A stretch of 64,000 nucleotides of DNA, taken from a phage. The notes beneath the pieces are model-generated. The model had not been told where the DNA came from and made no database searches. It worked only from the letters and a program-made list of their open reading frames with translations. The translations under genes were made by a program, and so were the position numbers. Every line of letters begins with the position of its first letter. The stretch's first letter is position 1. The stretch is taken from sequence record NC_129898.1; one strand, given 5' to 3'. This document shows, piece after piece, positions 1,417 to 41,030 of this stretch.

Positions 1417-1745
1417 TAGTCTTCCTCCAGGTTCAAAGGTCCTAAGATTTCATATGCTAGATTAGAAGTTACCAGAGGGTCTTCTGCATCTTTAGTATTA
1501 TACCATCCGTGAATAACCAGAGTCCCACTTTGCTTCATGTCTAACTGGAACTGTTCTGCCGTTTCCTCATCCATCTCCAAGATCTCCATGAGGTATTTGA
1601 TGTTAGGAAGGTATGCAGCTGTTACAGTCCCCTCTACCAGGCCTTCAGGCCAACCTACATCCGGATGACAAGTAGGGACCAGAGAGGTCAGCTTGATAGT
1701 GTATGCTTTTTCTGCACGAGCCTTCAGTAACGGATCAATTTTCAT
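1416..1745 (-). CDS. hypothetical protein
   Basis: 109-aa ORF; stop/start coupled to neighbours. Confidence 0.5.
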   Translation of the reverse strand: MKIDPLLKARAEKAYTIKLTSLVPTCHPDVGWPEGLVEGTVTAAYLPNIKYLMEILEMDEETAEQFQLDMKQSGTLVIHGWYNTKDAEDPLVTSNLAYEILGPLNLEED

Positions 1746-13073: not shown

Positions 13074-13424
13074 TTACTGCAATAGTTTTTCAATAGCCGC
13101 TTCCATGCTGCTTGCAACAGCCTGAACTCGGATATTCATCTCTTCTTGGTGGATCAGCTCCTTAAGCTCTTTAATGGTAAATTCTTTAGAGAAACCTTCT
13201 ACCATAATCTTGTGTAAGGCTTCTTGCGTGTCTACCTGCAAGAACTTTTCCAGTTTGTTGGCAGAGGCTTCTAAATCAGCCCGAATACGAGGGTCATCTG
13301 TGCGATTCAGCATCAGGCGTAAGCCATCAAGATTAGTAGAAATAGCGTCTGCATGTTGAGTAACTAATCGTGGCAAAATGAGATCTACAAACTTATTAGC
13401 CAAATCGATACGTTCTTGTGTCAC
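13074..13424 (-). CDS. hypothetical protein
   Basis: 116-aa ORF (GTG start). Confidence 0.5.
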   Translation of the reverse strand: MTQERIDLANKFVDLILPRLVTQHADAISTNLDGLRLMLNRTDDPRIRADLEASANKLEKFLQVDTQEALHKIMVEGFSKEFTIKELKELIHQEEMNIRVQAVASSMEAAIEKLLQ

Positions 13425-13596
13425 TGTTGCACCCCCTCTTCATCCTCATGATGTTTCTTTTCACGCTTGTGTTTTTTCTTAAGCTCAAGCGCAATCTCTT
13501 TTTTGTACGCCTTCTTCAAGGCCTTTTTAGCCATTTGGCACCTCCTCTGCTTTCATTACGCTAATTATAACCAACTTAACAAGACTTTGTCAACAA

Positions 13597-14070
13597 TTAG
13601 TCAACCTGAACCCAACCGCCTGCTACCTTTTTAAACATTCTTTGGTTATCACTGCCTCGGAATGGTTTCTTGGTTGGTAAATCTTTTACATACTTTCCAT
13701 CAATGACGATATCAGCCAGTTTAAGAACATCACTAGAGATATGCTCAAATGTGAACCCAGTATACACAAGAATAGTTTTCTTGTCACCAAACTTTTCCTT
13801 AATTCTCCTCATAAGGTTGATAATATCTGGCTCATTATAAGTAGCCAAAGGCTCTCCACCAAGTAAAGAAATACCGCATACAGATTCATTGTCTAAATCC
13901 AACAAAATTTTCTGCAAATCTTCTTCGGTGAACTCTCTTCCTTTATCTTTTGACCAAAATGCTTGATTAAAGCAACTGGGACAAGCGTGTGGGCACCCAG
14001 ATACCCACAAAGCTGTCCTAATACCTGGCCCCTCGGTGTAAGATATCTCTGTATACCCGACAATATTCAT
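13597..14070 (-). CDS. nrdG: anaerobic ribonucleotide reductase activating protein (radical SAM)
   Basis: CPHACPSC radical-SAM cysteine motif; start set to ATG at 14070 (MNIVGYTE) overlapping the upstream stop. Confidence 0.8.
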   Translation of the reverse strand: MNIVGYTEISYTEGPGIRTALWVSGCPHACPSCFNQAFWSKDKGREFTEEDLQKILLDLDNESVCGISLLGGEPLATYNEPDIINLMRRIKEKFGDKKTILVYTGFTFEHISSDVLKLADIVIDGKYVKDLPTKKPFRGSDNQRMFKKVAGGWVQVD

Positions 14071-14183
14071 ACATACTCCGCATCGCATTTAGGACAATGC
14101 CAAATAAAATCGTCCAGTGCCTTACACCAACGAAGATTGCAATGACAACCACACTTGCAAATTTTATAAATACCTGTAGACAT
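14067..14183 (-). CDS. small Cys-rich (zinc-ribbon-like) peptide, 38 aa
   Basis: GGAGG RBS 7 nt upstream of ATG 14183; MSTGIYKICKCGCHCNLRWCKALDDFIWHCPKCDAEYV; stop overlaps nrdG start (ATGA). Confidence 0.35.
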   Translation of the reverse strand: MSTGIYKICKCGCHCNLRWCKALDDFIWHCPKCDAEYV

Positions 14184-14246
14184 GCTGCACCTCCTAGTTT
14201 ACTGTGTGACAACAATATGCAACATCCTTGTGACTTTTGTCAAGTA

Positions 14247-15239
14247 TCAGCAACCACAACTTCCGTAGTGCTTAACCCGTTCTATAACCTCCGCTTGCTT
14301 ACCTTTATTGTAAGGACGGGAGTTTGGACTGGACAGATACCCGGATACACGTCTAATCACACTGATCGTTCCCTCTTCATGGTTTCCACACTCTGGGCAT
14401 ACAAAGCCTTTAGCTGTTGCACTGAACTCACCAGAGAATCCACACTTAAGACATTTATCCACAGGCTGGTTAATACCAAAATACATAATGTGTTTATATC
14501 CGAAATCAACAAGAGCTTCCAAAGCATCTAAGTTGTTTTTCAGATTTGGTGTCTCTATGTACCCAATGTTGCCACCAGAGGAGATCATAGCAAAACCTTC
14601 CTCATACTTCCACTTATCAAAAGGCGAGCTATTGATCCATACTGGCTGATGGAAACTGTTGGTGAGGTATTCATGCTCGTGCTTCAACACTTCTGGGTAT
14701 TCACGATCCAGACAGGTTGCAGCTTTATAGCATAAACTCTCAGAAGGTGTGCCGTACAAGCTAAATGCTAGTCCACTTTCCTTCTTGTATCGCTCACAAG
14801 CATCTTTCATGTGCTGAAGGATTCCAAGAGCTAAAGCCTTGTCACCCTCTCTGCCCAAAATCTGACAGGTTTCATACACACCAATATACCCAATACTGAT
14901 GGAAGCGTACCCGTCATAGAAGAGTTTATCGATACTCTCTTCAGGATCCAGGCTAGCAAGAGCTCCTTCACACCACATGATAGGGTTATGCCCTGCCTTT
15001 GTTCCTTTTAGACGGTTAACTCTTACAAGGTGAGCCTCATATGCCAAATCCAAATATTCGTCAAGAACTGCAAAGAAATCAACACCTTCCGTTTTAGCTT
15101 TTGCCGCAATCATTGGTAGGTTAAGGCTAACAACACCCAAGTTGAATCTGCCAAGGTATTTCTCCTCGCCTGTTACAGGGTCGCTATATTTCGATAAGAA
15201 ACTTCTACACATTATGTTCAAGGTGGTTCGCAAGGCCAC
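14247..15239 (-). CDS. nrdD: anaerobic ribonucleoside-triphosphate reductase, C-terminal part
   Basis: Glycyl-radical-type RVSGYL motif and C-terminal Cys cluster; reading frame remains open upstream of the GTG at 15239. Confidence 0.85.
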   Translation of the reverse strand: MALRTTLNIMCRSFLSKYSDPVTGEEKYLGRFNLGVVSLNLPMIAAKAKTEGVDFFAVLDEYLDLAYEAHLVRVNRLKGTKAGHNPIMWCEGALASLDPEESIDKLFYDGYASISIGYIGVYETCQILGREGDKALALGILQHMKDACERYKKESGLAFSLYGTPSESLCYKAATCLDREYPEVLKHEHEYLTNSFHQPVWINSSPFDKWKYEEGFAMISSGGNIGYIETPNLKNNLDALEALVDFGYKHIMYFGINQPVDKCLKCGFSGEFSATAKGFVCPECGNHEEGTISVIRRVSGYLSSPNSRPYNKGKQAEVIERVKHYGSCGC

Positions 15240-15962
15240 CCCCGCACCATTACGTGCTGCTGCATGTCCCCATGCAGATCAGACTATATCTTCACACTTA
15301 GTGTGTCTACCATTTCGAGTGTCATCAGCTTACACCCTACACCGCTACATTCATCACGGTTAGTCGTTAGGCATTTCGTAACAGAACTCGTAATCATAGT
15401 TATTAGGTGCACCACGTTTCAGGATAGCAGATATTCTTTTTCTATCTATTCCTAAAACATCAGCACAACATCTCAGACTCTTAAAGTGAATAACCACACC
15501 AGTTAATTTGTGGGTGGCTTTCACCCCGTGACATCTTGTGTAAAAAGCATAACAGTTGTTGTCGTATCCTTCTTGAGTATTGTCTGGGCAAGCTCCCCAC
15601 TCAAGGTTGTATACGCTGTTATCTTTCCTGTTGTCACCTTTGTGCTTAACATATGGTAAATTGTCTGGATTTGGTAAAAACGCTTCAGCAACAAGTCTGT
15701 GAACCCTTAGGCAAACAGTCTTTTTGTTCTTGCGTATCCTGACAAGACGGTAACCTGTGTTTATCTCTTCCCACGAATGAATAATTCTTTCATTTTCGTA
15801 TCGGGTGCAATAAACATTGCCCATCTCGTCAATTTCATAACCTTCAAAATCACGAATTTGTTTTCTCATTTCAGGACTCCTCTTAGTCAGGAGTTCTGTT
15901 ACGTTTAGCACGGGATTGTCCGTTCTGGAGTTTCCCCGTTTAGATAGATTTTACATGAGCAG
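15240..15962 (-). mobile_element. intervening sequence splitting nrdD (group I intron or free-standing homing-endonuclease insertion)
   Basis: About 720 bp between the two nrdD reading frames, containing an HNH endonuclease ORF on the same strand. Confidence 0.5.
15360..15869 (-). CDS. HNH homing endonuclease
   Basis: VHRLVAEAF...HKGDNRKDN...NLEW HNH core; ATG at 15869 preceded by AGGAG. Confidence 0.75.
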   Translation of the reverse strand: MRKQIRDFEGYEIDEMGNVYCTRYENERIIHSWEEINTGYRLVRIRKNKKTVCLRVHRLVAEAFLPNPDNLPYVKHKGDNRKDNSVYNLEWGACPDNTQEGYDNNCYAFYTRCHGVKATHKLTGVVIHFKSLRCCADVLGIDRKRISAILKRGAPNNYDYEFCYEMPND

Positions 15963-17132
15963 TTATAGTTTACCCATGCTTGTTACTTTGCCGTCTGTTG
16001 AACCTGTCACTTTACGATTTAGTGGAACAGAAACAAAGTCAGGATAAATCCGCTCTGCAGAGCATTCTAGAGCCAATCGTTTCAAATCGTAGTTAGGATC
16101 CCCAGGGTTCATGTTGACACCCTCCTCTAAGAAGAACAGCACTTTAGGAAACACAGGGGTGATCCGTTCTTCACCAAGACCCATTTTGTGGACTTTCAAG
16201 TAGTTTTTGGTAATCATTCTACCAAAGACCGAGGTATCCAGTCCTAAACTTAATGTGATGAATGGAGTTTGCCCGTTGACAGAAGTTAACGTATTGATTT
16301 GGTAGAGCAAAGTTTGCATACTATCAAACACGTCTTTATCTGTCATTTGCATTGCAACAGTCTCAGCATCTGGCAACCAATGCTCCTGACAAAATTTAAG
16401 GTTCTTCTCATAGGTTGCTTCAGCATACTGTGCCAGATAATGATCAATATGGCTCATGGTTTGACCACCATATTGAGCACTAGCTACTGCACTAGAGATT
16501 TGGCTAAGGATTGTTGTTGCAACCCCTATTGACTTCGGCTTACTGACATGGGCGTTGCCAATGTTGAATCCGTTTTCCAGCATATCCGGATAATTTACCA
16601 AACAACAGTTTGTTAACGGACTGATCAGGTAGTCAAGATCATGCACATGGATGAAGCCTTTGTTGTGCTCTTCGGAGACACGGTCTGGCAGGATCTGTGT
16701 TGATGCAAGATGTTTGCTAAGGATGCCTGCAAGCAGGTCACGATGAGTGTGTACATGATTAGTAGGCTTATTTGCGTTTTCTTTTGTAAATTCATCACAA
16801 GTACGATCCAAGAAGCCACTAATATCTGCAAGCAGTTTTCCACCTGCCTCTCTGTTATTATCTCTTGTCTGTCTATACTGGATGTATTCTCTGGCTGCAC
16901 ATTTTAAACCCATATCCATAAGAGCATCTTCAACAAGGATATGGATATTTTTTACAGAGATCGTGCACTGGTCGGTTGGCAGATTGTTGGCAACAACTTC
17001 ATTAACCGCACAGGCAATCCGGTAAGCTTCTTCTTCAGTATGTCCAGACTCAAGTAAGGCGGACTCTGCCGCCTTGATCACCTTAATTCCGTTATAAAAC
17101 TCTTCTCTACCGTCCCGTTTTACAACTTTCAC
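15963..17132 (-). CDS. nrdD: anaerobic ribonucleoside-triphosphate reductase, N-terminal part (ATP-cone)
   Basis: N-terminal VVKRDGREEFYNGIKV ATP-cone; terminates at a stop immediately 5' of the HNH region. Confidence 0.85.
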   Translation of the reverse strand: MKVVKRDGREEFYNGIKVIKAAESALLESGHTEEEAYRIACAVNEVVANNLPTDQCTISVKNIHILVEDALMDMGLKCAAREYIQYRQTRDNNREAGGKLLADISGFLDRTCDEFTKENANKPTNHVHTHRDLLAGILSKHLASTQILPDRVSEEHNKGFIHVHDLDYLISPLTNCCLVNYPDMLENGFNIGNAHVSKPKSIGVATTILSQISSAVASAQYGGQTMSHIDHYLAQYAEATYEKNLKFCQEHWLPDAETVAMQMTDKDVFDSMQTLLYQINTLTSVNGQTPFITLSLGLDTSVFGRMITKNYLKVHKMGLGEERITPVFPKVLFFLEEGVNMNPGDPNYDLKRLALECSAERIYPDFVSVPLNRKVTGSTDGKVTSMGKL

Positions 17133-40045: not shown

Positions 40046-40117
40046 GCCCTGTTAGCTTAGTGGATAAAGCAGCGGCCTTCTAAGCCGTTGACACTGGTTC
40101 GAGTCCAGTACGGGGTG
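40046..40117 (+). tRNA. tRNA-Arg (anticodon TCT)
   Basis: Acceptor GCCCTGT/ACGGGGT, D-stem GCTT/AAGC, anticodon loop CTTCTAA, T-loop TTCGAGT, CCA encoded. Confidence 0.8.
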
Positions 40118-40250
40118 CCAAGTTCTTTTTAATGTAGCTTACTTTAGCAGAGTAAATCTTCGGCAAGTGGCGGTAACCACTTTACCGATACCTCATAGTT
40201 AGTGGTGAGAACACTAGCTATTTTAAAAAGAATTTAAATATTAGTATTTA

Positions 40251-40335
40251 GGTGAGTTAATTCCGTAGGGGTAGCGGGGCAGACTGTAAATCTGTTATCA
40301 TTGCGATTCGGGTGGTTCGACTCCATCACTCACCA
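40251..40335 (+). tRNA. tRNA-Tyr (anticodon GTA), long variable arm
   Basis: Acceptor GGTGAGT/ACTCACC, anticodon loop CTGTAAA, T-loop TTCGACT, discriminator A, CCA encoded. Confidence 0.75.
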
Positions 40336-40452
40336 CCAAATTTATATTTTTAAATGCATAAATCATACAGATAATGGCATTGATATTTATCGTCGTTTAT
40401 ACTAGTCACTAACTGCTCGAAAATCAGTGTCATTATCAGTATTGTTTATAAA

Positions 40453-40540
40453 AGAGGGTAGGGAGCAATGGTGCTCAAGCGGTCTTGAAAACCGTCCCGT
40501 TGAGGATGACTCGATGATGGTTCGATTCCATTATCCTCTG
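40453..40540 (+). tRNA. tRNA-Ser (anticodon TGA), long variable arm
   Basis: Acceptor AGAGGGT/ATCCTCT, anticodon stem GCGGT/ACCGT with loop CTTGAAA, T-loop TTCGATT, discriminator G. Confidence 0.7.
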
Positions 40541-40640
40541 CCATATTGTTGACCTTGTAATTAAGCGAAAGCCGGAAGCAGAACCGGATTATCAAATGTT
40601 ACAGTCGTCATCGCCGACTAGCCACATGGTCAACATATTG

Positions 40641-40737
40641 CGCTAGGTAAGCCCTTTGGCAAGGGCGAGGATTTTTAATCCTGAAAATAGACGAGGTAGT
40701 CGTTGAATACATAGATGGTTCGATTCCATCACCTAGC
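40641..40737 (+). tRNA. atypical 97-nt tRNA-like element (anticodon loop TTTTTAA, possibly UUU)
   Basis: Perfect acceptor GCTAGGT/ACCTAGC, D-stem GCCC/GGGC, canonical T-arm GATGG-TTCGATT-CCATC, but ~30-nt variable region with ACGA-GGTAG-TCGT hairpin. Confidence 0.35.
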
Positions 40738-40743
40738 ACCTTT

Positions 40744-40816
40744 TGCTGATGTAGCACAATTGGCAGTGCAATTGATTTGTAATCAATAGGTTGCAGGTTC
40801 AAGTCCTGCCATCAGC
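40744..40816 (+). tRNA. tRNA-Thr (anticodon TGT)
   Basis: Acceptor GCTGATG/CATCAGC, D-stem GCAC/GTGC, anticodon stem ATTGA/TCAAT with loop TTTGTAA, T-loop TTCAAGT. Confidence 0.8.
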
Positions 40817-40820
40817 ACCA

Positions 40821-40892
40821 TGGCCCTGTAGCTGGAAGGTTCAAGCAAGCGACTCATAATCGCCAGACGGTGGTTCAATTCCACCCAGGGCC
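40821..40892 (+). tRNA. tRNA-Met or Ile2 (anticodon CAT), elongator-type
   Basis: Acceptor GGCCCTG/CAGGGCC with paired 1:72, anticodon loop CTCATAA, T-loop TTCAATT. Confidence 0.7.
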
Positions 40893-40907
40893 ACCAAATT
40901 ATAAATA

Positions 40908-40981
40908 CTCCGCGTAGCTCAGCTTGGTAGAGCGCCTGATTTGGGATCAGGAGGTCGAGTGTTCGAATCACTCCGTGGAGA
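40908..40981 (+). tRNA. tRNA-Pro (anticodon TGG)
   Basis: Acceptor CTCCGCG/CGTGGAG (C1:G72), D-arm GCTCAGCTTGGTAGAGC, anticodon stem CCTGA/TCAGG with loop TTTGGGA, T-loop TTCGAAT. Confidence 0.8.
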
Positions 40982-41030
40982 CCACCTTTAGTTATACTTT
41001 AAACATATACACACAAAAGGAACCTTTAAA

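What the first reader, a model, noticed from the sequence alone, without database searches (positions are those of the whole stretch)
14067..14183. Unannotated 38-aa Cys-rich peptide translationally coupled to nrdG
A strong RBS (GGAGG) precedes ATG 14183. The peptide MSTGIYKICKCGCHCNLRWCKALDDFIWHCPKCDAEYV has seven Cys and two His in zinc-ribbon-like spacing, and its stop overlaps the nrdG start (ATGA). The 60-aa ORF track reports a different, hydrophobic frame (14018..14215) on the same strand instead. The peptide could be a small metal-binding partner of the anaerobic RNR system.
Basis: seen in the sequence. Interest (0 to 1): 0.4.

Follow-up and report, generated by a model that had tools for sequence, protein, structure and literature searches.

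The report
Portable Cys-rich mini-gene upstream of nrdG
The 38-codon cysteine-rich reading frame in front of the phage's nrdG gene is a real, conserved protein-coding gene that databases already list as a hypothetical protein, but it behaves like a portable accessory cassette, not a dedicated part of the anaerobic ribonucleotide reductase.

Summary
The ORF at 14067..14183 (-) is exactly as described: AGGAGG 6 nt upstream, 38 aa, 7 Cys and 2 His, and an ATGA overlap with nrdG. The window is a Vequintavirus (rV5/FV3-like). The ORF is a real gene. Against a sister clade whose NrdG is only 50-55% identical, the peptide core has pN 0.057 at saturated pS 0.78. All core Cys use both TGC and TGT, and the rival hydrophobic frame is broken in four relatives. 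It is not new: it matches phrog_20137 full-length (E 6e-30) and is annotated in many GenBank records, though not in FV3. The two His are not conserved; the seven Cys are. No known family matches significantly. A low-confidence model and sub-threshold hits suggest a zinc-ribbon-like fold. The link to the RNR is positional, not obligate. The peptide stays nearly unchanged next to three nrdG alleles and remains intact where extra ORFs separate it from nrdG (rV5, L022). In podophage ACG-C91, which shows no NrdG or NrdD at that locus, it is ATGA-coupled to a DNA ligase, where it replaces ORF-for-ORF a different mini zinc ribbon. Two phages carry a nonsense or frameshift mutation. Most likely it is a portable metal-binding accessory mini-protein whose partner is unknown.

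The parts
14214..14243 (-). sigma-70-type promoter-like site (TTGACA, 18 nt, CATATT), just after the nrdD stop codon and upstream of the mini-gene
   Evidence: One search gives 10 of 12 consensus matches. The element is conserved in position and sequence in the Vequintavirus relatives. It is a consensus match only; function was not tested.
14190..14195 (-). Shine-Dalgarno AGGAGG, 6 nt upstream of the mini-gene's ATG
   Evidence: Read directly. It is conserved in most relatives, while L014 has ATGAGG.
14067..14183 (-). 38-aa Cys7 mini-protein gene (phrog_20137), stop codon included
   Evidence: for the ORF. PHROG match, E 6.3e-30, 38 of 38 positions; pN 0.057 against pS 0.78 versus the sister clade; variable sites by codon position 10/4/20, and every core Cys uses both TGC and TGT.
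14076..14079 (-). GGAG inside codons Ala35-Glu36 of the mini-gene, 5 nt before the nrdG ATG; likely the nrdG ribosome-binding site
   Evidence: Read directly. The same GCG/ACG-GAG-TAY codons precede the coupled downstream gene in all relatives, including the ligase in ACG-C91.
14067..14070 (-). ATGA overlap: the mini-gene's TGA stop and the nrdG ATG start
   Evidence: It is conserved in 12 of the 16 relatives examined and in ACG-C91, where it overlaps the ligase start.
13597..14070 (-). nrdG (class III RNR activase, 157 aa), starting at MNIVGY and not at the upstream ATG at 14088
   Evidence: Fer4_12 E 7.7e-42, Radical_SAM E 3.3e-8. The upstream extension MRCGVC used in the FV3 annotation reads ATG-TGA in the JES2013-type sequences.
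14247..15201 (-). 3' part of nrdD (Zn ribbon CLKC...CPEC and glycyl-radical motif RVSGY); upstream neighbour of the mini-gene
   Evidence: for the translation. for the alignment to the uninterrupted nrdD of JES2013.

Best explanation
This is a genuine gene for a 38-residue mini-protein with seven cysteines. It most likely folds around a metal ion, in a zinc-ribbon-like way, using invariant Cys only. In this phage it is the first cistron of a short unit that runs promoter-like site, AGGAGG, mini-gene, nrdG. Its last codons carry nrdG's GGAG and its stop overlaps nrdG's start, so ribosomes finishing the peptide probably reinitiate on nrdG. The gene is a self-contained, portable accessory cassette and not a subunit of the anaerobic ribonucleotide reductase. 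It keeps its sequence whatever lies downstream, and it has been swapped ORF-for-ORF into a small-gene slot of an unrelated podophage. It probably acts as a small metal-stabilised binding module on a phage or host partner that is still unknown, and it is dispensable for propagation. Shown here: coding status, purifying selection, invariant Cys, the coupling anatomy, the mosaic context, the transfer to another context, and the narrow distribution. Inferred: metal binding, the fold, actual translational coupling, and action by binding a partner.
For: Coding and selection. Window versus L008/L009 over the 28-codon core gives pN 0.057 and pS 0.78, while the adjacent nrdG gives pN 0.32-0.36 at 50-55% aa identity. 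Sixteen distinct core DNA sequences have 10/4/20 variable sites at codon positions 1/2/3, and all six core Cys use both TGC and TGT. The peptide frame is open in 16 of 17 loci, whereas the +1 hydrophobic frame has stops in L004, L005, L012 and L019. Catalogued family: phrog_20137, E 6.3e-30. Independence from nrdG. rV5-type phages keep NrdD-C at 97% and PhoH at 97-99% identity, but their NrdG is 52% identical and about 390 bp of extra ORFs separate it from the peptide, which ends in TAA and stays intact. L022 shows the same kind of uncoupling. Portability. In ACG-C91 the gene sits between a nucleotide kinase and a DNA ligase and is ATGA-coupled to the ligase. Other Vectreviruses have, between the same junctions, either a different 38-aa CxxC...CxxC ORF or an unrelated 57-aa ORF. 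Homing-endonuclease traffic around the slot: an HNH gene inside nrdD and a T5orf172/GIY-YIG-type gene between nrdD and the peptide in L005 and L023. Dispensability: a TGC-to-TGA change at Cys9 in phage nimi and a 1-nt frameshift in phage Alma. Fold hints: three predicted beta-strands, and sub-threshold sequence and structure neighbours that are almost all zinc ribbons.
Against: There is no direct evidence of expression, metal binding or a partner. The AF2 model is of low confidence (mean pLDDT 61.7), and no fold or sequence match to a zinc ribbon is significant (best E 0.33, 1.8). In the window's variant the first knuckle is CxC, not the canonical CxxC. Apart from the single ACG-C91 genome, every copy found (about 120 Vequintavirus records and a sister clade) lies between nrdD and nrdG. 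An RNR-related role therefore remains compatible with the data, and the ACG-C91 copy could act on the host's NrdD/NrdG. The nimi and Alma lesions could be sequencing errors.
Confidence: 0.6

Rival explanations
1. One reading: a dedicated small metal-binding partner of the class III RNR. It could, for example, donate an electron or a metal to the radical-SAM activase NrdG, or act as a free-standing counterpart of NrdD's C-terminal zinc ribbon.
For: It is conserved between nrdD and nrdG in about 120 Vequintavirus records and in a sister clade (L008, L009, L022-L027). It is ATGA-coupled to nrdG in most of them. It has seven invariant Cys. PHROGs and RefSeq label it 'ribonucleotide reductase', but that label is by association only.
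Against: The copy in ACG-C91 is coupled to a DNA ligase, with no RNR gene nearby. The peptide does not co-vary with three nrdG alleles that are 50-55% identical. It stays intact when uncoupled. It is absent from other phages with nrdD-nrdG, such as phiTE, PD06, tuntematon and the T4-like phages. It shows no relation to NrdD's zinc ribbon (hhalign probability 10%). Natural nonsense and frameshift variants exist.
Confidence: 0.2
2. A Mu Com-like regulator: a small zinc-finger protein encoded just upstream of, and overlapping, its target gene, which binds the mRNA or DNA to control expression of the downstream gene.
For: The architecture is the same: a mini zinc-finger-like ORF overlapping the next gene's start, in both contexts (nrdG and ligase). 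The Vectrevirus slot also holds another mini zinc ribbon in front of the ligase.
Against: There is no Pfam match to any family, including zinc-ribbon and Com families, at E <= 1. The downstream mRNAs (nrdG alleles, ligase) share only ATGAATAT. The RNA around the junction is not unusually structured (z = -0.39). The peptide is not markedly basic (4 K and 1 R against 3 D and 1 E, read from the sequence). It is retained where another ORF follows it.
Confidence: 0.08
3. A purely cis-acting leader ORF. Only the act of translating it matters, by delivering ribosomes to nrdG, and the peptide itself has no function.
For: The ATGA overlap, and the nrdG GGAG embedded in its last codons. Natural nonsense and frameshift variants are viable.
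Against: Strong amino-acid-level purifying selection with saturated synonymous sites. Invariant Cys, Trp and Asp residues. The ORF is intact where it is uncoupled from nrdG.
Confidence: 0.04
4. A RiPP-like arrangement: a Cys-rich precursor peptide encoded next to a radical-SAM enzyme that modifies it, as with SCIFF/ranthipeptide or sactipeptide precursors.
For: A small Cys-rich ORF lies directly upstream of, and coupled to, a radical-SAM gene.
Against: The radical-SAM protein is a 157-aa activase (Fer4_12 plus the Radical_SAM core only) with its substrate NrdD next door, and no other Pfam domain matched at E <= 1. No NCBIfam hit to a RiPP precursor family at E <= 10. The peptide occurs with no radical-SAM neighbour in ACG-C91. 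It has no leader/core organisation, because conservation spans the whole peptide.
Confidence: 0.02
5. A chance ORF with no function.
For: Cys-rich chance ORFs of this size do occur in the window.
Against: All the conservation evidence.
Confidence: 0.01

Closest known systems
phrog_20137 (PHROGs v4), equivalent to RefSeq YP_008530353.1 (JES2013 gp108, 'ribonucleotide reductase') and UniProt A0A9E7SGM6 ('Uncharacterized protein')
   Same: It is the same protein family. The match is full-length (38 of 38 profile positions, E 6.3e-30), and identity to annotated CDSs in many Vequintavirus records is 87-100%.
   Different: Nothing differs. The family's functional label was copied from its neighbours and has no experimental or homology basis (no Pfam or NCBIfam hit).
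Stand-alone mini zinc ribbons (Rpb9/TFIIS-type ribbon, ribosomal L37ae/eL43, LysW, ZifS, archaeal HVO_0758-type small zinc-finger proteins)
   Same: The size is similar. There is a CPxC knuckle near the C-terminus and a Cys knuckle near the N-terminus (CxxC in the 53-54 aa variants). Three short beta-strands are predicted. These proteins are the best, though sub-threshold, sequence and structure neighbours.
   Different: No match is significant. The peptide has seven conserved Cys, not four. The first knuckle is CxC in this window's variant. The CGCxCNLRWC block has no counterpart in these families.
Phage Mu Com (from my own knowledge: a small zinc-finger translational activator encoded just upstream of and overlapping mom)
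   Same: A mini Cys-rich ORF that overlaps the start of the next gene.
   Different: There is no sequence match, no conserved RNA target downstream, and the peptide is kept in front of unrelated genes.
The alternative 38-aa CxxC...CxxC ORF in the kinase|ligase slot of K1E-type Vectreviruses (L020 799..915)
   Same: It has the same length and occupies the same slot between identical junctions. It has the same ATGA coupling to the ligase and is also Cys-rich.
   Different: It is not detectably homologous: hhalign aligns only one 8-column knuckle. It has four Cys, not seven.

Membership tests
phrog_20137 | Significant full-length match to the family profile | tested here: met
   E 6.3e-30, residues 1-38 on profile positions 1-38 of 38.
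Zinc ribbon fold | Two Cys knuckles (CxxC or CPxC) separated by roughly 10-20 residues | tested here: inconclusive
   The C-terminal CPKC is invariant as CPxC. The N-terminal knuckle is CKDC or CKHC in the 41-54 aa variants but CKC (CxC) in the window's 38-aa form. Three further invariant Cys are unaccounted for.
Zinc ribbon fold | Three-stranded antiparallel sheet with the knuckles at the turns, and a significant structural match | tested here: inconclusive
   AF2 predicts strands 16-20, 25-30 and 35-37, but mean pLDDT is 61.7. Foldseek against the PDB gives a best E of 1.8; the top hits are zinc ribbons but none is significant.
Zinc ribbon fold | Significant sequence match to a curated zinc-ribbon family | tested here: not met
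   Pfam: no hit at E <= 1. NCBIfam: best E 0.14 (L37ae), far below the cut-off. PDB profile search: best E 0.33.
Zinc ribbon fold | Binds one Zn(II) through four Cys | not testable with these tools
   This needs metal analysis of the purified peptide.
Class III (anaerobic) RNR system component | Obligate co-occurrence with nrdD/nrdG | tested here: not met
   It is present in ACG-C91 next to a kinase and a ligase, with no RNR gene in the 8-kb locus. It is absent from most phages with nrdD-nrdG.
Class III (anaerobic) RNR system component | Homology to a known RNR protein or domain | tested here: not met
   No Pfam or NCBIfam hit. hhalign against the NrdD C-terminal zinc ribbon gives probability 10%.
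Class III (anaerobic) RNR system component | Physical or functional interaction with NrdD or NrdG | not testable with these tools
   No multimer prediction or experiment was available. The indirect evidence is that the peptide does not co-vary with three nrdG alleles.
RiPP precursor with radical-SAM maturase (e.g. SCIFF) | The neighbouring radical-SAM enzyme carries maturase domains, and the peptide matches a precursor family | tested here: not met
   NrdG is 157 aa and matched only Fer4_12 and Radical_SAM. No NCBIfam precursor match at E <= 10.
Mu Com-type zinc-finger translational activator | Sequence membership in the family | tested here: not met
   Pfam scan of the peptide: 0 families at E <= 1.
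Mu Com-type zinc-finger translational activator | Binds a structured site in the downstream gene's mRNA | tested here: inconclusive
   No exceptional structure at the junction (z = -0.39), and the downstream genes differ. Binding itself cannot be tested here.

The most novel reading that the evidence does not exclude
The mini-protein is a portable, metal-loaded plug-in. Phages place it, translationally coupled, in front of nucleotide- and DNA-metabolism enzymes (NrdG, DNA ligase). It would then act on a shared process. It might be a minimal rubredoxin- or desulforedoxin-like redox or metal donor used by the radical-SAM activase, including the host's own activase in ACG-C91. Alternatively it might inhibit a host factor that senses or blocks phage nucleotide metabolism. 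The interchangeable mini zinc ribbons in the Vectrevirus slot would be functional analogues of it.
Probability: 0.1. Interest if true: 0.6.

Novelty: new member of a known kind. Interest (0 to 1): 0.3.

Why it matters
The practical value lies mostly in annotation. The ORF should be called in FV3-type genomes. nrdG should start at MNIVGY, not at the upstream ATG. The inherited product name 'ribonucleotide reductase' for phrog_20137 is unfounded. Biologically, this is a clean example of an extremely narrow orphan family: only two cluster representatives among 1.84 billion proteins. It is under strong purifying selection and moves as an ORF-precise cassette between a myophage RNR operon and a podophage ligase slot. 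That makes it a reasonable candidate for a small accessory or host-interaction factor. Nothing here makes a long-standing question testable.

Tried and rejected
1. L015, a metagenome hit at 44% identity over 25 residues, was rejected. It is high-GC bacterial DNA, and the match lies in a frame overlapped by long ORFs on both strands.
2. The genome-contig scan found no bacterial or prophage copy.
3. Pfam, NCBIfam, PADLOC and PDB sequence searches gave nothing significant.
4. The exhaustive HMMER profile search found no remote relatives, only P0006 and P0010 of the same family.
5. The AF2 model was of low confidence, and fold searches of the PDB and BFVD returned only non-significant generic zinc fingers plus the orthologue itself.
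6. Descent from NrdD's own zinc ribbon was tested and rejected (hhalign probability 10%).
7. Homology with the alternative Vectrevirus mini zinc ribbon was rejected, because only an 8-column knuckle aligned.
8. An RNA structure gating the nrdG start was tested, and the fold is unremarkable (z = -0.39).
9. A resemblance to the Cys pattern of the bacterial metallothionein SmtA, recalled from memory, has no support from the Pfam scan and was dropped.
10. Literature searches found no study of this ORF. The rV5 genome paper lists gp109-112 and gp117 collectively as RNR subunits without further comment (PMC3606486).
11. The first attempt at search for homologous proteins failed because the query was under 40 aa. 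It was repeated with 5 in-frame upstream codons added.

Full report
**Observation.**
On the - strand, an ATG at 14183 opens a 38-codon frame that ends with TGA at 14069..14067. The translation is MSTGIYKICKCGCHCNLRWCKALDDFIWHCPKCDAEYV. AGGAGG lies at 14195..14190, 6 nt before the ATG. A promoter-like TTGACA-18-CATATT (10 of 12 matches) sits at 14243..14214, just after the nrdD stop.

The stop overlaps the ATG of the next gene (ATGA at 14070..14067). That gene's product, MNIVGYTEISY..., is a class III RNR activase (Fer4_12 E 7.7e-42, Radical_SAM E 3.3e-8). So the description is accurate.

Cys-richness alone is not beyond chance. Among 407 ORFs of 30-60 aa in the window, two evident chance frames have 9 and 7 Cys.

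**Where the window comes from, and whether the ORF is new.**
The region is 98.8% identical to Escherichia phage EPFV3-03/2025 and 97.8% identical to FV3 and YP-6. It matches 120 phage records, nearly all of them Vequintavirus.

The peptide matches phrog_20137 over its whole length (E 6.3e-30). It is a called CDS in JES2013 (gp108, 'ribonucleotide reductase') and in EPFV3 (ORF150, hypothetical), and in many other records. It is also in UniProt and BFVD as an uncharacterised protein. In FV3 it is not called, and nrdG is instead extended to an upstream ATG.

That extension (MRCGVC) is not conserved. In JES2013-type sequences the same frame reads ATG-TGA. nrdG therefore starts at MNIVGY, and the mini-gene is a separate ORF.

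**Is it coding?**
Copies were extracted from 23 loci. The most informative comparison is with a sister clade of uncultured 133-140 kb myophages (L008, L009, L022-L027). Their closest cultured relatives are Vequintaviruses at about 73% DNA identity.

- Against L008/L009, NrdG is 50-55% identical in amino acids (pN 0.32-0.36, pS 0.72-0.76).
- Over the same comparison, the 28-codon peptide core has pN 0.057 at pS 0.78.
- Across 16 distinct core DNA sequences, variable sites fall 10/4/20 on codon positions 1/2/3, and each of the six core Cys uses both TGC and TGT.
- The peptide frame is open in 16 of 17 loci.
- The +1 hydrophobic frame carries stop codons in L004, L005, L012 and L019.

This is a protein-coding gene under purifying selection.

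**What the protein looks like.**
These residues are invariant in the initial 10-sequence alignment: K7, C9, K10, C11, G12, C13, C15, N16, L17, R18, W19, C20, K21, L23, D24, D25, I27, W28, C30, P31, C33, E36 and Y37. K21 is replaced by Ala in the 41-aa variant P0010, found later.

The two His are not conserved. His14 becomes R, S, K or E, and His29 becomes Y. Any metal site must therefore be built from Cys alone.

The sister clade has 53-54 aa forms with a Lys/Glu-rich N-terminal tail and a canonical CxxC first knuckle (VCKDCGCEC). A 41-aa intermediate also exists.

No curated family matches:
- Pfam gives no hit at E <= 1.
- NCBIfam's best hit is E 0.14.
- PADLOC gives no hit.
- The PDB profile search's best hit is E 0.33.

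A full HMMER profile scan of 1.84 billion cluster representatives returns only two proteins, both from this same family.

The sub-threshold neighbours are all zinc ribbons: the PolD DP2 zinc finger, L37ae/eL43, LysW and HVO_0758. AF2 gives a low-confidence model (mean pLDDT 61.7) with three short strands. Its non-significant Foldseek neighbours are again mostly zinc ribbons, such as Rpb9, a NUDIX N-terminal ribbon and ZifS.

I read this as a probable zinc-ribbon-like metal-binding mini-domain with three extra conserved Cys. The fold and the metal are inferred, not shown.

**Context: is it tied to nrdG?**
Four observations say the tie is positional and not obligate.

1. The peptide sits beside three nrdG alleles. 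In rV5-type phages (L016, L012, L013), NrdD-C is 97% and PhoH 97-99% identical to the window, but NrdG is only 52% identical. About 390 bp with two small ORFs lie between the peptide and nrdG. The peptide there ends in TAA and is intact. L022 in the sister clade shows a similar uncoupling by a 34-aa ORF. The peptide core barely changes among these backgrounds.

2. The slot is surrounded by homing-endonuclease traffic. There is an HNH gene inside nrdD (window, L009, L022, L024). A T5orf172/MUG113 (GIY-YIG-type) gene lies between nrdD and the peptide in L005, and a DUF723-type relative does so in L023. In L005 the peptide's 5' end is of the sister-clade type.

3. The SP6-like podophage ACG-C91 (Vectrevirus, 43.7 kb) carries an unannotated 36-aa copy, MSVFKICKCGCRCNLRWCKALDDVIWYCPKCNTEYL. 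It lies between a DUF3310 nucleotide kinase and an ATP-dependent DNA ligase, and is ATGA-coupled to the ligase. No RNR gene lies in that 8-kb locus.
   - Its core is at most 73 of 84 nt identical to any sampled Vequintavirus copy, and all Cys are kept (pN 0.087, pS 0.59 against the window).
   - Other Vectreviruses have different ORFs between exactly the same junctions (GAGGATATTTRATATG ... ATGAATATMTTCC). One is a different 38-aa CxxC...CxxC ORF, also ATGA-coupled. The other is an unrelated 57-aa ORF without Cys.
   - The slot therefore holds interchangeable small-gene cassettes. The shared ATGAATAT at the nrdG and ligase starts gives an 8-nt microhomology at the 3' junction.

4. Other phages with nrdD-nrdG have no copy detectable by tblastn at E <= 10. 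These include phiTE, PD06, tuntematon, the T4-like phages and ICP1. In several of them nrdD and nrdG abut.

In addition, phage nimi has TGC-to-TGA at Cys9 and phage Alma has a 1-nt insertion that rewrites the C-terminus. If these lesions are genuine, the gene is dispensable for propagation.

**Coupling.**
The GGAG that serves the downstream gene lies in codons 35-36 (GCG GAG), 5 nt before the nrdG ATG. The same arrangement precedes the ligase in ACG-C91. Part of the conservation of Glu36 and Tyr37 may therefore reflect this signal.

Termination-reinitiation coupling is plausible but untested. The local RNA is not unusually structured (z = -0.39), so coupling by unmasking a hairpin is not supported.

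**Explanations weighed.**
- Preferred (about 0.6): a real, portable, metal-binding accessory mini-protein. It happens to be the leading cistron of nrdG in this phage lineage, and it acts by binding a partner that is still unknown.
Apart from one genome, every copy lies between nrdD and nrdG, and the ACG-C91 copy could in principle act on the host enzyme. No homology, co-variation or obligate linkage supports it, and hhalign against NrdD's own zinc ribbon gives probability 10%.
- A Mu Com-like regulator of the downstream gene gets about 0.08.
- A purely cis-acting leader ORF gets about 0.04. The amino-acid-level selection contradicts it.
- A RiPP-like pairing of precursor and radical-SAM enzyme gets about 0.02. 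NrdG is a minimal activase, the peptide matches no precursor family, and it occurs with no radical-SAM neighbour.
- A chance ORF gets about 0.01.

**Novelty and verdict.**
The ORF is already catalogued, so the 'unannotated' aspect is only a local gap in FV3-type records. No function has been reported for the family. Its product name 'ribonucleotide reductase' rests on neighbourhood alone.

As a kind, a mini Cys-rich zinc-ribbon-like phage accessory protein in a variable small-gene slot, it is familiar. The sequence family itself is an orphan with a very narrow distribution.

Interest is modest (0.3). The useful outputs are corrected annotation, evidence of strong purifying selection, and evidence that the gene is a mobile cassette and not an RNR component.

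Noticed in passing
window 15202..15971 (-), ORF 15360..15911 (-): nrdD is split. Compared with the uninterrupted nrdD of JES2013, the window has an insertion of about 770 bp. The insertion carries an HNH_3/NUMOD-like ORF and a sub-threshold Rfam group I intron match at 15260..15494 (-): 32.9 bits against a gathering score of 50, E 1.8e-6 for that stretch. It is probably an HNH-carrying group I intron, like the T4 nrdD intron. Relatives carry different insertions at other points in nrdD (L009, L022, L024).
   Followed up: partly
window 13421..13534 (-), promoter 13564..13593 (-): A second mini-gene has the same architecture. It encodes 37 aa, is Lys/Glu-rich (MAKKALKKAYKKEIALELKKKHKREKKHHEDEEGVQQ) and matches phrog_7670 (E 2e-20). 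It follows a perfect 12-of-12 sigma-70 consensus promoter and a GAGGAGG site. Its TGA overlaps the GTG start of the next 116-aa ORF, 13074..13424, as GTGA.
   Followed up: partly
L020 799..915 and L021 799..972 (Vectrevirus kinase|ligase slot): The slot between the nucleotide kinase and the DNA ligase in SP6-like phages holds at least three unrelated small ORFs between identical junctions. All three start at the same ATG and end in an ATGA overlap with the ligase. One of them is a different 38-aa CxxC...CxxC peptide, MTCPNCGSEETEHVVMSDTYHFYFCHSCDTTIEEEEAV.
   Followed up: partly
L001 2113..2604 (FV3 nrdG); window 14070 vs 14088: FV3's nrdG is annotated from an upstream ATG (163 aa) that overlaps the mini-gene. 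The extension is not conserved, because it reads ATG-TGA in JES2013-type phages. The start is probably mis-called.
   Followed up: yes
L019 (phage nimi) about 1501..1614; L018 (phage Alma) 1501..1686: Natural lesions in the mini-gene. nimi has TGC-to-TGA at Cys9. Alma has a 1-nt insertion (GCGAGAGTAC) that turns the C-terminus into a 61-aa product. These may be real loss-of-function variants or sequencing errors.
   Followed up: no
L005 279..1439; L023 45..1259: A 386-404 aa gene with DUF723 and DUF4379 treble-clef zinc fingers is inserted between nrdD and the mini-gene in O157 typing phage 14 and in one metagenomic contig. In L005 it also carries T5orf172/MUG113 (GIY-YIG-type) domains. SophiaRose has a gene annotated as a GIY-YIG nuclease in the matching region. 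In L005 the mini-gene's 5' end is of the sister-clade type, which suggests co-conversion.
   Followed up: partly
GenBank MG0656xx records (one search hits H20-H25 and others): About 19 records named 'Campylobacter phage' (host C. jejuni) are about 92% identical to this E. coli Vequintavirus region. They are unannotated. They are probably mislabelled or contaminant assemblies.
   Followed up: no
window 40046..40984 (+): A tRNA cluster. ARAGORN and Rfam disagree on two members: Rfam alone calls 40251..40335, and ARAGORN alone calls tRNA-Ser at 40453..40543. ARAGORN reports an odd 99-nt tRNA with a 4-base anticodon at 40642..40740.
   Followed up: no
L019 1614..2087 (nimi_28); L016 1769..2005 (rv5_gp111): The product name 'putative minor capsid protein' is attached to nrdG in phage nimi. 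In rV5 it is attached to a 78-aa ORF with no Pfam hit that lies between the mini-gene and nrdG. This looks like a propagated annotation error.
   Followed up: no
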